Shown: positions 53,374 through 64,000, counted from the first letter of the stretch. The stretch is 64,000 nt of DNA from Amoebidium appalachense (GCA_963693365.1 CAVNZM010000005.1:4220667-4284666), one strand, 5' to 3'. Made by a program: numbers and translations. Notes: generated from the letters alone by a model not told the origin.

Positions 53374-53823
53374 TTGGACTGCTCCCCCTAGTTGAACAGT
53401 TTGGGGGGAAAGCCGAAGGCTCTAAATTCGGATATTCGGGATTTGGTTGTAAGGTTTTACGGGTCGGGCCGAAGGCCTTAACGGGCCGCAGGCCCGCCTA
53501 TTGGGCCGCCAGGCCCGGGGCCCCGGGGACGGGGGCCTCCCCACCCACGCGGGCCACCCCCGGCCCGGCCCGGCCCGCGGGGGCACGGGGAGTAGAGCTC
53601 TACTCCCCGTGCCCCCGCGGGCCGGGCCGGGCCGGGGGTGGCCCGCGTGGGTGGGGGAGGCCCCCGGTCCCCGGGGCCCCGGGCCTGGCGGCCCAATAGG
53701 CGGGCCTGCGGCCCGTTAAGGCCTTCGGCCCGACCCGTAAAACCTTACAACCAAATCCCGAATATCCGAATTTAGAGCCTTCGGCTTTCCCCCCAAACTG
53801 TTCAACTAGGGGGAGCAGTCCAA
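53374..53823. repeat. 450-bp spacer-less near-perfect palindrome with GC-rich core
   Basis: Arms 53374-53597 and 53598-53823 are reverse complements centred on GAG|CTC, differing only by two 1-nt indels. Confidence 0.97.
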
Positions 53824-54077
53824 TATTGCTTCGCTCTTTCCAGTAGATCACTTCCAAATATCTATCACGTGATGACCTTCCCGATTGTTCTTCCAATGAC
53901 ATTTTCTATCACTATCGACAGTTCTCCAATATTAGAACAGAAAACGGTTTATACGCACATGGCCAGATGGCCAGATCAAATTCAGTCTGTGAGCAGGGGG
54001 GGATCCACCTGAAGTCAAAACAATCTGGCCATCTGGCCATGTGGCCATAGAATAGATTAGTATGTAAGGCACTGGCT

Positions 54078-54710
54078 GCCACCACTGGGGGGCGTGGTTC
54101 CGGCAGCAGGGGGGGAGGGGAGGCACACGTGCAGGGGGGCTGGGGAGAGTGGGGGAGGCATGGCACCGCTGGGGAATGGCACCACTGGGGGCGTGGTTCC
54201 GGCAGGCCAGCAAGAGGGCGGATATGTGAGGCACACATGCTGGCGAGGAGGGCAAGGAGGGCGAGACTGGCGAGCCACCCACAGTGAGAAAGTATTATGT
54301 ATGCATAGAGCATGTTGCCTGTGCAGCAGGTAGATGTGCATGAGGCACCAGAGTGGTGCAAGTTTCTGGTGGCTCTGTTTGACTAATAAAGGCATATGCT
54401 GCCACCACTGGGGCCTGGTTCCGGGAGGAGGGGGAGGCACACGTGCAGGGGGGCTGGGGAGAGTGGGGGCGGCATGGCACCGCTGGGGGCGTGGTTCCGG
54501 GAGGAGGGGGGGCTGGGAGGAGGGGGAGGCACGTGTATTCGTATATACACCTAACTAAATGCCACCACTGGGGGCGTGGTTCCGGCAGCAGGGGGGCTGG
54601 GGAGCAGGGGAGGCTGGGGGGCCGGGGGGGCGGAGGAGGCGGAGGAGACTGGCGGGGGCCTCACAGTTGGTTCCGGGGGGCACGGGGGGGGGGGGGGGGC
54701 CTTGCTGGCA

Positions 54711-54745
<35 letters not shown>

Positions 54746-54775
54746 AAAGACACTGCCCGGGCGTGGTTCCGGGGG
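54078..54775 (+). repeat. Interspersed GCCACCACTGGGGGCGTGGTTCCGG motif, ~6-7 copies
   Basis: Copies near 54078, 54178, 54400, 54477 and 54561, with partial copies near 54668 and 54760, separated by related G-rich sequence. Confidence 0.85.
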
Positions 54776-54830
54776 GCACGGGGGGCACGGGGGGCACGGG
54801 GGGAGGGGGGGGGGGGGCAAAAAGTCTCTC

Positions 54831-54874
<44 letters not shown>

Positions 54875-60981: not shown

Positions 60982-61022
60982 GGATAATAGTTGTGGGGGC
61001 GGGGGTGTTCTTGTTTGTTGGG

Positions 61023-61275
61023 GCTTCGGAACTCGTGCGCGCGCTTGCCGGGAAGCAGGAAGATGATCTCGACGAGGAACTTGAAGGGAGCTACAGGTGT
61101 CAACTTGCCCATGCACACTTCGCTGCATTGGTAGTGCCTAGTACCAGGGAAGCTACGTCCAGCACACTTGCCATCTTGGTGTCTTGGTCGATGCGAATAG
61201 TAGCATCCTAGAACTCAGGGAATTCCTTCCACAAAGCGACATGTCAACCTTCGAGTTGTTCTGCCTGGTAGCCAT
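61023..61275 (-). pseudogene. Decayed paralogue of the Bro-N/KilA-N-like N-terminal domain
   Basis: Broken frames read *DATIRIDQDTKMASVLDVASLVLG and GKLTPVAPFKFLVEIIFLLPGKRAHEFR, with an in-frame TAG, frameshifts and truncation. TATAAAA at 61320-61314 precedes the ATG at 61275. Confidence 0.7.
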
Positions 61276-61389
61276 CCTGTGTCAGACTGACCCCAGTTGG
61301 CTGTGTCTGTTCCTTTTATACCTGCTTATCGAAATATTGATGTGTTTCCTCTGTTTGAAGAAACGAAACTTTGAAGGTATGTCTTGGGG

Positions 61390-62643
61390 CTACTGCGCTT
61401 GCTCGTGACTGGCCTTCTTGAACACACTGATGACGAGGTCCCTTGTCAAGTCGTCTTCCATGTGCTCCCTTGCCATCTCCAGCATGGCCGCGGCAAAAGT
61501 CGCAAAGTCCACACGGAACAGCTCGCGCTCAACGTTCTTGTGCTTTAGTGCGGTGTGCAGGAACTTCTCGGCCAGCACCAGCTGCTCAGACGGAACGGGC
61601 AGCGCAAAGAGCAGGCGCTTGTTGGGGCCCACGTGCCACGTGCCTGCCTGCTTCATGCGGCCCTTCACGTCCTTCAGGCTCTGGCCGATCTTCAGACAGG
61701 GCGGGTCGCCATACTCGGACACAAACACGTAGATCCCGGACTGCTGCTTGGCGCACACGGTGCTGGTCACCCGGCGCAGCTCCTCGCCTGCATCCTCGAA
61801 TTCCGACGGGATGTGGTCCGGCTTGAGACTATCTGCTGTCTGGAGCTCCAGCAGTCGGCACTGCGCCTCGATTTTCAGGCGCTCCTCCCGGATCACAGCA
61901 GCTTGCTCGCGCATCCTCGCGATCTCCGTGTACTGAGGAGATTCGGCGATGCGTGCCTCCTTGTACAGACTCAGTGCAGTTTCCATCTCGGCCTGGTTGG
62001 TCATGAACTGGGTGATGTCCCCGAGCTTGAGTCTCTTGGGCTCCCTCTCGGGGGTGCCGGCCGCACCCATTTCCCCCCTCACACTGTCGCGCATGAAAGC
62101 GTTGGGTCCTGACGGGTTGGCCGCTGCCGCGGCACGGTTGCGCTCGATGTCTTCGACCAAGGTCTCGTCCCCACCTTCCAGGCGCGCTATGTCTCGGGCC
62201 CACTTGTCAACGAGGGCAGATCCATAGCGCGAGCCGGATGCCATCTTGAAGGTCAGTTTCACCAACGATGAAGCAGGAACACCAATCGAGGGTCGCTTTG
62301 AATCGCCGAACCTCAAAGGCCTCATGTTGAGGCCTTTGATTTCCTCTTCATTCTCATAATGTCGTCTGACATACTCAGCGGCCGCATGTCTGTCTAAATT
62401 GCGCACTAGCATTGCATAATCAACAAGACTGGCGTATTTAACACCTTCGGATTGAGCAACTCGCACTACATAGTCACCAATGCAGATGGTGTCGCCTTTT
62501 TTTGTGACCAGCTCGTTTTCGGTTAGCACAGCTAAGCCTTCGATGTGTTCAGTTGGCATGGTTTGTGAAACTGAGGTTTGGGGTTGTGTGTCTGGTTCTT
62601 TTATACCCTTGGGTTGACTGTCGGGGTTCACCTCGTTGGACAT
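61390..62643 (-). CDS. Virus-type protein: Bro-N/KilA-N-like N-terminal domain, coiled coil, C-terminal T5orf172/MUG113 (GIY-YIG superfamily) domain
   Basis: Intron-less 417-aa ORF. The C-terminus GIYVF...LKIGQS...RMKQAGT...LAEKFLHTALKHKNVERELF fits the T5orf172 pattern. The N-terminal ASLVD...F.D...IGV...LV.L...R..GGDETLVEDIERN resembles a domain recalled from large DNA virus proteins (not searched). Confidence 0.85.
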   Translation of the reverse strand: MSNEVNPDSQPKGIKEPDTQPQTSVSQTMPTEHIEGLAVLTENELVTKKGDTICIGDYVVRVAQSEGVKYASLVDYAMLVRNLDRHAAAEYVRRHYENEEEIKGLNMRPLRFGDSKRPSIGVPASSLVKLTFKMASGSRYGSALVDKWARDIARLEGGDETLVEDIERNRAAAAANPSGPNAFMRDSVRGEMGAAGTPEREPKRLKLGDITQFMTNQAEMETALSLYKEARIAESPQYTEIARMREQAAVIREERLKIEAQCRLLELQTADSLKPDHIPSEFEDAGEELRRVTSTVCAKQQSGIYVFVSEYGDPPCLKIGQSLKDVKGRMKQAGTWHVGPNKRLLFALPVPSEQLVLAEKFLHTALKHKNVERELFRVDFATFAAAMLEMAREHMEDDLTRDLVISVFKKASHEQAQ

Positions 62644-62907
62644 CAGCCGCGTGATAAAATTTAATCATTCAATAGTAGGAAAGAGCAAATGTGAAAAGTA
62701 AAATTTTGTTAGGAATTCTGTGCTATGTTAATAGTACTGAAGCAGTAGGAAAGAGTAAGGATGAAAAATAAATATATAAATAAAAATAACAAGATCCTGC
62801 GAACACAGACAGTTCTCAGAGGAAGACTGATTAACCTTCCATTATCCAACGTTGGGTTTGGGTTCTTATGACTATTTTGTTCGACTACTATCAATGTAAT
62901 ATTATTT

Positions 62908-64000
62908 TTAATGCTTCTCTTTATTAAAAAGCAAAGTTTCCTTAAGCAATCCTTATTCTATTTCTTTTTTTATTATATGGAATTCCTCATTTATTTGTAT
63001 TCTTTTGTATTTGATTAATTTCCTCTTTCTTCATTCATTCTCACTTCTATTTACTATCTCATTCTTTCTCTTTTCTATTTTATTTTCTCTTCTTGATTTT
63101 CTCTTTCCTTATTTACTCTTTCTTTCTTCACTCTTTTTTATTTTACATCTTCTCTTAAGTTGAAATAATTTTTAATTTTATGAATTAGGATGAGATTCTT
63201 TATTACCTTATCCATTAGCTTATTATTTATTCATATTTCTTATTTTCTCTCTTAGCTAATTTTCTTCTTCTACTCATACTTACTTTTCCTAATTGAGTAG
63301 CAACTTCTTACGAAGCCAATTATTATTTTTATTAGCCTAGTAAAAGATGTTATAGTAGTACTATAGTTTATACTTAGTACAAAACTTCCTTTGATTGAAC
63401 AGAGGAGACATTGATCCATCTAGTGTATATAAATAGGAAATAAAGCTCTTAAATATCTTTTTCCTATAAAGTTATAATAATACTAGTTAGTATGTTTTAT
63501 AACGTCTAGAACAAATACTTTCGGTTATTCCCTTTTTTATATACACTAGATGGATGAATGTCTCCTCTGGTTAAACAGAAGAAGTTTTGTACTAAGTATA
63601 AACTATAGTACTATCTCTTACTAAGCGAGTAAGAAGTGGCTTCTCAGAATAGAAAGGTAAGTATGAGTAGAAGAAGAGAATTAGCTAAAAGATATGAATA
63701 AAGAATAAGCTAATGAGCAAGGTAATAAAGAATCTCATCCTAAGTGCATAAAATTATAAAATCTTATCTCAGGATTAAGAGAAGATGTAAAATAAGAAAG
63801 AGTAAATAAGGAAAGAGTAAATAAAGAAGAGAGAATAGAATAGAAAAGAGAATTAATAGCTAGTAAATAAAAGGGAGAATGAATGAAGAAAGAGGAAATT
63901 AATCATCTACTAAAAAATACAGATAAATGAGTAAATCCTGGAAATAAAAGAAGAAATACAATAAGGATAAGATTTAATAATTCAATTAAGAGAAACATTA
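62908..64000. repeat. AT-rich imperfect giant hairpin centred ~63486, continuing past the window end
   Basis: Complementary blocks include AGGAGACATTGATCCATCTAGTGTATATAAA / TTTATATACACTAGATGGATGAATGTCTCCT; TAGTACTATAGTTTATACTTAGTACAAAACTTC / GAAGTTTTGTACTAAGTATAAACTATAGTACTA; and TTAGGATGAGATTCTTTATTACCTT / AAGGTAATAAAGAATCTCATCCTAA. The tip is ATACTA-GT-TAGTAT. Confidence 0.92.

What the first reader, a model, noticed from the sequence alone, without database searches (positions are those of the whole stretch)
53374..64000. ~11-kb gene cassette bracketed by two different spacer-less hairpins: candidate new hairpin-ended virus-like element
Seen: a 450-bp GC-rich palindrome at the left end and an AT-rich palindrome of at least 1.1 kb at the right end. 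They enclose compact orphan genes, repeat arrays not seen elsewhere in the window and a T5orf172 gene, in sharp contrast to the intron-rich host genes. Known: linear genomes with fold-back termini (heterotelomeric parvoviruses, poxvirus/ASFV/chlorovirus ends, protelomerase replicons) appear as palindromes when copied into duplex DNA. Inference: this may be an integrated linear element with two unlike hairpin ends, apparently non-autonomous since no Rep, polymerase, integrase or capsid is visible. It could instead be the edge of a larger endogenous virus.
Basis: partly seen in the sequence, partly recalled or inferred. Interest (0 to 1): 0.85.

Follow-up and report, generated by a model that had tools for sequence, protein, structure and literature searches.

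The report
Palindrome-tipped virus-gene repeat in Amoebidium
In the genome of Amoebidium, a single-celled relative of animals, a near-perfect 450-base palindrome is likely one end of a many-copy mobile element carrying virus-type genes, while the second, decayed palindrome is probably unrelated mitochondrial DNA, so the proposed two-hairpin virus is likely only half right.

Summary
Both palindromes are real but unlike. The left one (53374-53823) is near-perfect: 224 of 226 columns match, with no spacer and no target-site duplication. The right one (~62909 to beyond 64000, centre ~63485) is decayed: 402 of 533 columns match and it is 26% GC.

The host is Amoebidium (DPH5 exons match an EukProt Amoebidium protein). 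Short-read contigs from four runs of three studies show the left arm and the DNA just inside it as a diverged many-copy family, beside low-depth flank. That fits an element end. No listed contig bridges the flank-arm junction.

The inside holds about six intron-poor ORFs tied by a private 33-mer array, plus a KilA-N/Bro-N-like + T5orf172 gene of giant-virus type. No Rep, polymerase, integrase or capsid was found.

One frame of the right palindrome weakly but consistently resembles scrambled nad1 pieces (7 of 7 PDB hits ND1/NuoH, best E 0.002). It begins abruptly ~55 bp upstream of the last gene's TATA box, so it is probably mitochondrial DNA rather than the second end.

Verdict: likely an undescribed, non-autonomous, palindrome-tipped giant repeat whose far end is not seen. 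The heterotelomeric model is not supported.

The parts
53374..53823 (.). Near-perfect spacer-less GC-rich palindrome (69% GC), centre 53597/53598; likely left terminus of the element. Junction reads T|T, no target-site duplication.
   Evidence: contigs
53824..54060 (+). Many-copy subterminal motif. Some copies repeat a ~90-bp unit starting at 53824, and some have other sequence upstream.
   Evidence: tables 2, 3, 5c, 7, 8
54066..54772 (+). Array of GGGGCGTGGTTCCGG-type repeats (6 matches, all on +, none elsewhere in window)
54873..55325 (+). 33-mer array with (CT)n tracts, 3' of ORF A
55820..56275 (-). ORF A, 151 aa, likely coiled-coil (weak Pfam look-alikes only), TATAAAA at 56346; no family found
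57672..58663 (+). ORF B, acidic protein with a frame shift in a G-rich run; ends in RGG repeats and a basic tail; no family found
58845..59260 (-). Duplicated 3'-UTR-like block (76% to 59868-59971) followed by the 33-mer array in reverse orientation
59271..59754 (+). ORF C / probable exon after a possible CAG acceptor; four STTPK(S/P)K repeats, two containing GPGRP (AT-hook-like by eye), and an acidic tail
   Evidence: no family
59868..60112 (-). Second copy of the UTR-like block plus 33-mer array
60180..60437 (-). ORF D, 85 aa, two hydrophobic stretches; only weak membrane-protein look-alikes
60579..60978 (-). Probable secreted cysteine-rich protein (signal-peptide-like start, Pro/Thr stalk), frame shift in a C run
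   Evidence: no family
60970..61281 (-). Broken small gene behind TATAAAA at 61320; Bro/KilA-N-like by eye only
   Evidence: not detected by tblastn with P0001-P0004, Pfam or NCBIfam
61390..62559 (-). KilA-N/Bro-N-like DNA-binding domain + coiled coil + T5orf172 (GIY-YIG) domain. Intact ORF; likely start 62559 behind TATAAAA at 62605 (longest ORF starts 62643).
62660..64000 (.). AT-rich (26-27% GC) block with a decayed inverted repeat (arms ~62909-63431 and ~63535 to beyond 64000); nad1-like pieces at ~63680-63870 on the minus strand under code 4; probably mitochondrial-derived and not part of the element
44835..49584 (-). Host DPH5 gene (7 exons hit); identifies the host as Amoebidium

Best explanation
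The 450-bp palindrome is likely the left end of a many-copy, non-autonomous mobile DNA element of Amoebidium that carries intron-poor virus-type genes, and the AT-rich fold-back on the right is probably separate mitochondrial DNA that cuts into or follows it. Shown: the palindrome, its position between low-depth flank and many-variant repeat DNA, the private arrays tying the genes together, the KilA-N/Bro-N-like + T5orf172 gene, and the lack of a detected mobilising enzyme in the window. Inferred: the palindrome is a hairpin end copied out into duplex DNA. A helper nicking or recombining enzyme encoded by a fuller family member would cut at the hairpin's inner edge (53823/53824), giving a fixed outer edge and insertion without target-site duplication. 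The element's true right end is either lost at ~62660 or lies beyond 64000.
For: (4 runs, 3 studies, contigs only). The flank 53251-53367 is covered at low summed depth (X1 8; X2 14 on part of it). The arms and interior are covered by many variant contigs (at 53955: 6, 10 and 4 contigs in X1, X2, X9); X2 summed depth reaches 5902 on the arm and 19880 inside. The tool warns this is no copy number. Contigs run from arm into interior: X2 53794-53855 at depth 420 and X1 53793-53853. A shorter-arm variant joined to the same interior start is seen in X1, X2 and X19. An X9 contig matches from exactly 53374 with 54 unlike letters before it. No TSD of 2-11 bp. The 33-mer arrays lie 3' of ORFs A, B and C in the same sense relative to transcription and nowhere else in the window. 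N-terminal domain fold: Mbp1 Z 7.2, rmsd 3.2, 89 aligned; phaeovirus FirrV-1-A34 E 5e-4. C-terminal part: Bro-N/T5orf172 proteins of giant viruses, best E 2.4e-4. Right block: 7 of 7 PDB hits at E<=10 are ND1/NuoH, best E 0.002, with two ND1 segments in swapped order. The top Pfam hit is NADHdh, E 0.046 and the top NCBIfam hit is NuoH, E 4e-4. Three other T-rich frames gave 0 PDB hits. GC falls from 0.53 to 0.28 at ~62660. Amoebidium mtDNA is several hundred linear chromosomes (PMC2518934 passages).
Against: No listed contig bridges the flank-arm junction: X1's flank contig stops at 53370 and X1 has nothing else laid in 53368-53406 (table 8 is cut). Both arm-interior contigs fall one letter short of the tool's 31-letter bridging rule. 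Because the palindrome is symmetric, the unlike letters beside the arm in X9 and X2 may be other interiors rather than other insertion sites. The interior motif also occurs behind other sequences (loose ends at 53878, 53879, 53917), so it is not exclusive to this end. No second copy, empty site or helper enzyme was seen. The nad1 signal is weak, below every curated cutoff, comes from 1 of 4 frames tried against PDB, and the three libraries are not independent; the 5.8-billion-protein search found nothing for it at E<=10. The N-terminal model is low-confidence (pLDDT 52), and Z<8 can be a common arrangement. PDB Foldseek gave no match for the T5orf172 part.
Confidence: 0.52

Rival explanations
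1. A chance pile-up. The palindrome is a stand-alone fold-back/MITE-like repeat next to satellite arrays, a decayed scrap of giant virus or adintovirus, and a mitochondrial insertion, with no single mobile unit.
For: Another decayed palindrome lies 1.4 kb to the left (51707-51977, 76%). The interior motif occurs behind other sequences. About half the genome is transposon-derived, and viral insertions decay and gather secondary insertions (PMC11244446 sections 6 and 7).
Against: No TSD. The arm runs into the same interior start in full and shortened variants in three runs, while the outer flank is low-depth. One private array family spans 54.9-60.1 kb in a gene-relative orientation.
Confidence: 0.22
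2. The palindrome is the captured hairpin terminus (concatemer junction) of a larger endogenous virus, a giant virus or adintovirus-like element, that continues beyond 64000 after a mitochondrial insertion.
For: The KilA-N/Bro-N-like + T5orf172 architecture is of giant-virus type. T5orf172 genes and short repeat arrays sit in entomopoxvirus terminal repeats (PMC11296320 passages). Amoebidium has 90 chromosomal GEVEs plus 42 unplaced, and 44 adintoviruses.
Against: No core viral gene in 10.6 kb. The many-variant, high-depth subterminal DNA in all four runs looks more like a transposon family than like isolate-specific viral insertions (inference). No related locus in IMG/VR.
Confidence: 0.12
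3. One reading: one ~11-kb linear element with two unlike hairpin ends, integrated whole.
For: Both palindromes lack a true spacer and bracket the gene cluster. Parvoviral telomeres can differ at the two ends and run 100-550 nt (PMC12297876 passage). Eleven DNA runs of three studies hold 0.39-0.70 of the words of 55300-64000 (the best may be the source sample).
Against: The right arms are 12% diverged with 13 indels against 0 substitutions on the left, so the two ends are not of one age. The right block is over 1.09 kb, resembles nad1 pieces, and starts ~55 bp upstream of a TATA box.
Confidence: 0.09
4. Assembly artefact: a long-read fold-back made the left palindrome and/or a chimeric join attached a mitochondrial contig on the right.
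For: If the window comes from the published nanopore-based assembly (not established), such errors are possible, and homopolymer frame shifts are seen. The left junction is unbridged in the listed contigs.
Against: A read fold-back would mirror the flank too, and it does not. The right arms are too diverged to be a read artefact. Flank contigs reach 53370 and arm-interior contigs exist.
Confidence: 0.05

Closest known systems
Amoebidium 'Plavaka-associated giant repeats' (Sarre et al. 2024, PMC11244446; sections 6, 7, 10 and supplement legends read)
   Same: [quoted passage not shown]
   Different: No Plavaka transposase or tyrosine recombinase found here. The paper's text and supplements hold 0 occurrences of 'palindrom' and 'hairpin' (figures not seen).
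Amoebidium GEVEs and adintoviruses (same paper)
   Same: Virus-type compact genes among intron-rich host genes; decay; isolate differences.
   Different: No capsid, VLTF3, A32, D5, PolB, Dam or integrase in the window; the end is a spacer-less palindrome, not one arm of a terminal repeat pair.
Helitron2/HLE2 non-autonomous elements (PMC3627910, PMC11417382; passages read)
   Same: 5' T, T|T junction, 5'-terminal hairpin, no TSD, cargo capture (one HLE2 family captured a GIY-YIG domain).
   Different: Their hairpins and ATIRs are short (8-15 bp); this stem is 225 bp. No 3' ATIR copy and no RepHel in the window.
Parvovirus telomeres (PMC12297876; passages read)
   Same: A terminal palindrome in the 100-550-nt range that could be a copied-out hairpin.
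   Different: No NS1/Rep or VP, size over 10 kb, protist host, and the second end is not comparable.
Nuclear insertions of mitochondrial DNA (NUMTs; general knowledge)
   Same: AT-rich block with sharp border and broken nad1-like pieces readable under code 4.
   Different: Arranged as a >1-kb decayed fold-back; not matched to actual Amoebidium mtDNA here.

Membership tests
Parvoviridae (heterotelomeric) | NS1/Rep and VP genes | tested here: not met
   No such family in Pfam/NCBIfam scans of the cassette ORFs; longest frame 424 aa is the T5orf172 gene
Parvoviridae (heterotelomeric) | Genome 3.9-6.3 kb | tested here: not met
   Span over 10.6 kb; range from PMC12297876
Parvoviridae (heterotelomeric) | Palindromic telomeres of 100-550 nt at both ends | tested here: not met
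   Left 450 nt fits; right is over 1090 nt and decayed
Helitron2/HLE2 | 5' T and insertion between T and T without TSD | tested here: inconclusive
   Junction reads T|T and no TSD, but no empty site or right end was seen
Helitron2/HLE2 | Short 5' hairpin and an 8-15-bp 3' ATIR near a 3' hairpin | tested here: inconclusive
   5' stem is 225 bp; no further copy of the terminal 12-mer (<=2 mismatches) in 53824-64000; the end may lie outside the window
Helitron2/HLE2 | RepHel in autonomous partner | not testable with these tools
   None in window; no assembly held
Adintovirus/Polinton | PolB, integrase, major and minor capsid genes | tested here: inconclusive
   None detected in 53374-64000; a ~30-kb element would extend beyond the window
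Adintovirus/Polinton | Long terminal inverted repeats with TSD | tested here: inconclusive
   No partner end in window
Amoebidium GEVE | NCLDV core genes (MCP, A32, D5, VLTF3) | tested here: inconclusive
   None in window; published GEVEs are all incomplete
Amoebidium GEVE | Non-CGC/GCG hypermethylation block | not testable with these tools
   No methylome; CpG o/e is 0.72-0.97 in the gene blocks against 0.49 in host DNA
Plavaka-associated giant repeat | Tandem cluster of repetitive intron-poor genes | tested here: inconclusive
   Intron-poor cluster with duplicated 3' blocks and arrays, but the genes are not tandem paralogues
Plavaka-associated giant repeat | Flanking Plavaka transposase or tyrosine recombinase genes | tested here: inconclusive
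   None detected in the ORFs scanned; right side outside window
MITE / fold-back element (left palindrome alone) | Target-site duplication flanking the TIRs | tested here: not met
   No 2-11-bp duplication with 0-3 bp boundary shift
NUMT (right block) | Similarity to mitochondrial genes | tested here: inconclusive
   Weak, family-consistent nad1 hits; none
NUMT (right block) | Match to the host's own mitochondrial chromosomes | not testable with these tools
   Amoebidium mtDNA not held; Burger et al. 2003 not available

The most novel reading that the evidence does not exclude
Amoebidium carries a family of hairpin-ended linear DNA elements, neither parvovirus nor Polinton, that copy by a rolling-hairpin route and integrate with a copied-out 450-bp terminal palindrome. 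The KilA-N/Bro-N-like + T5orf172 nuclease would act as the nicking enzyme in place of an HUH Rep. PMC11296320 raises such a substitution for other elements; nothing here tests it.
Probability: 0.15. Interest if true: 0.8.

Novelty: new variant of a known kind. Interest (0 to 1): 0.45.

Why it matters
Amoebidium is a model for how viral DNA enters and persists in eukaryotic genomes, but the ends of its giant repeats are not described in the paper text I could read. A fixed 450-bp terminal palindrome shared by a many-copy family would point to hairpin-ended intermediates and give a sharp, testable handle on how such cargo moves. The finding also warns that AT-rich fold-backs in this genome may be mitochondrial DNA rather than viral telomeres.

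Tried and rejected
No assembly is held, so copies, empty sites and DNA beyond 64000 could not be examined.

No related loci were found: IMG/VR protein scans and pattern scans, JGI metagenomes, prokaryote genomes, phage records. Word-indexed protein search of the T5orf172 ORF gave 0 of 5905 candidates; the full HMMER search gave 5 hits, 4 credible, and the TPR protein P0005 was dropped as chance. The ESM Atlas gave nothing usable for ORF A and only unnamed clusters at 0.89-0.90 plus a Bro-N lead at 0.88 for the N-domain. Rfam gave 9 sub-threshold matches, 7 of them miRNA-type, all rejected; no tRNA.

Six-frame read-through of the AT-rich block gave no meaningful Pfam hit. Arm mismatches show no G-U bias, so there is no sign of selection as an RNA hairpin. 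One arm of the left palindrome folds only slightly better than shuffles (-57.8 vs -50.7 +/- 4.0), so no strong T/Y-shaped sub-hairpin. No convincing Helitron1 CTRR end in the cassette. I read the palindrome as a head-to-tail TIR junction and rejected it, because the DNA left of it is low-depth rather than element interior.

No RNA holder was listed. No contigs were laid on 55300-64000, so linkage of the right block to the cassette in other copies is untested.

Earlier scan notes by place, words and sequence gave nothing for this genome. Literature searches (mostly listings and abstract starts) showed no description of a palindrome-ended Amoebidium element; subscription papers and figure images were not visible.
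Full report
Observation. The left palindrome is as described: 53374-53823, centre 53597/53598, no spacer, arms alike in 224 of 226 columns, fold z = -46.9. The right inverted repeat is also real and pairs loosely to a mini-stem at ~63485, but it is decayed: 402 matches, 54 mismatches and 13 gaps over 533 columns. 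It continues past 64000. The two share no sequence. Between them lie compact ORFs, few simple repeats (2.2% against 12.8% in host DNA) and arrays found nowhere else in the window.

Host. The first exon of a DPH5 gene at 49453-49584 is 100% identical to EukProt EP00123_Amoebidium_parasiticum_P021269. Seven exons of that protein map to 44835-49584; five are 98-100% identical and two score lower, probably from alignment overrun at exon edges. The window is therefore Amoebidium, an ichthyosporean. Sarre et al. 2024 (PMC11244446; outline, sections 6, 7 and 10, term searches, part 1 of 2 of the supplement PDF) describe GEVEs, adintoviruses and Plavaka-associated giant repeats in this genus. Their text and supplements contain 'palindrom' and 'hairpin' 0 times; the supplements also contain 'T5orf172' 0 times. 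Four of 18 supplement pages are pictures and were not seen.

Left end. Contigs of four runs from three studies were laid on 52900-54060. The flank at 53251-53367 is covered at low summed depth (X1 8; X2 14 on 53290-53367). The arms and the DNA inside them are covered by many variant contigs, with X2 summed depth up to 5902 on the arm and 19880 inside. The tool says these sums are no copy number, but several distinct contigs per place (6, 10 and 4 at 53955) show a diverged family. Contigs run from the arm into the interior (X2 53794-53855, depth 420; X1 53793-53853), each one letter short of the tool's bridging rule. A shorter-arm variant joined to the same interior start occurs in X1, X2 and X19. 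One X9 contig matches from exactly 53374 with 54 unlike letters before it.

Against this reading: no listed contig bridges flank and arm (X1's stops at 53370; table 8 is cut), the palindrome's symmetry makes 'other flanks' ambiguous, and the interior motif also follows other sequences. There is no target-site duplication and the junction reads T|T. The simplest reading is an element end made of a palindrome with a fixed edge. This is inferred, not shown.

Cargo. The 61390-62643 ORF has a sub-cutoff T5orf172 hit and four credible relatives among 1.84 billion representatives: two unnamed (ENA, Logan) and two labelled Daphnia. Since Amoebidium lives on freshwater arthropods, the Daphnia-labelled ones may come from such epibionts; this is untested. 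The N-domain model (pLDDT 52) resembles Mbp1/APSES (Z 7.2) and phaeovirus and Bro-N proteins. The C-part (pLDDT 69) resembles giant-virus Bro-N/T5orf172 proteins; PDB gave no match. The GIY-like start and the Arg and Glu typical of GIY-YIG nucleases appear present by eye (motif recalled). ORFs A-D and a cysteine-rich ORF have no family. TATAAAA boxes precede three minus-strand genes at 45-71 bases. The 33-mer arrays follow ORFs A, B and C in the same sense relative to transcription, and two follow a duplicated UTR-like block, which ties 54.9-60.1 kb into one unit. No Rep, polymerase, integrase, recombinase or capsid was detected.

Right block. GC drops from 0.53 to 0.28 at ~62660, about 55 bases upstream of the T5orf172 gene's TATA box. 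One minus-strand frame under code 4 matches the C-terminal motif of ND1 followed by an earlier ND1 segment. All 7 PDB hits at E<=10 are ND1/NuoH (best E 0.002), and Pfam and NCBIfam rank the same family first (E 0.046; E 4e-4). Three other T-rich frames gave 0 PDB hits. The signal is weak, the libraries overlap, and the large protein search found nothing. Amoebidium mtDNA is spread over several hundred linear chromosomes (PMC2518934 passages; about 300 kb, PMC7194472 passage). Its AT-richness and TGA=W code are recalled, not checked. I therefore read the block as probable mitochondrial DNA, folded back and decayed, and not as a maintained viral telomere.

Mechanism. Most likely (0.52) this is a non-autonomous giant repeat whose hairpin end was copied out to a duplex palindrome and inserted without TSD by a helper enzyme encoded elsewhere. 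The hairpin intermediate and the helper are inferred. Rivals: a chance pile-up of repeats (0.22), the terminus of a larger endogenous virus (0.12), the two-hairpin element (0.09) and an assembly artefact (0.05).

Comparison. It works most like a Helitron2-type or parvovirus-type hairpin end carrying virus-type cargo. It fails the parvovirus tests and the MITE TSD test, and is inconclusive for HLE2, adintovirus, GEVE and Plavaka repeats because the far end and the helper lie outside what could be read. Earlier AI notes on other genomes report hairpin ends on a virus-like element and on tyrosine-recombinase transposons; I used them only as leads for possible helpers.

Verdict. A real and apparently undescribed terminal structure on a many-copy element in a genome already known for viral insertions; the bolder two-hairpin claim is not supported. 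Interest 0.45; new variant of a known kind.

Noticed in passing
window 51707-51977: Decayed spacer-less palindrome (76% arm identity) in the flank; probably an old fold-back insertion.
   Followed up: partly
window 23023-28472: Tandem duplication of about 2.7 kb at 91-95% identity.
   Followed up: no
window 37415-37445: Short interstitial telomere-like run mixing CCCTAAA and CCCTAA units.
   Followed up: no
window 50200-51130: GATATC-rich repeat block (10 GATATC in 50001-52000), probably another mobile element upstream of DPH5.
   Followed up: no
window 34200-36240 (-): Exons of a Rab-like small GTPase gene, recognised by eye; Pfam gave no hit on the one 30-aa exon tested.
   Followed up: partly
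P0002 (KAI9549583.1) and P0004 (EFX60935.1): The named relatives of the T5orf172 protein are labelled Daphnia; they may come from Amoebidium-like epibionts or their viruses in those assemblies (inference).
   Followed up: no
window 53955: All contigs laid here in X1, X2 and X9 read C where the window has G: a private variant of this copy or an assembly error.
   Followed up: no
window 62313-62339: Perfect 12-bp stem with a 3-base loop inside the KilA-N-like coding region.
   Followed up: no
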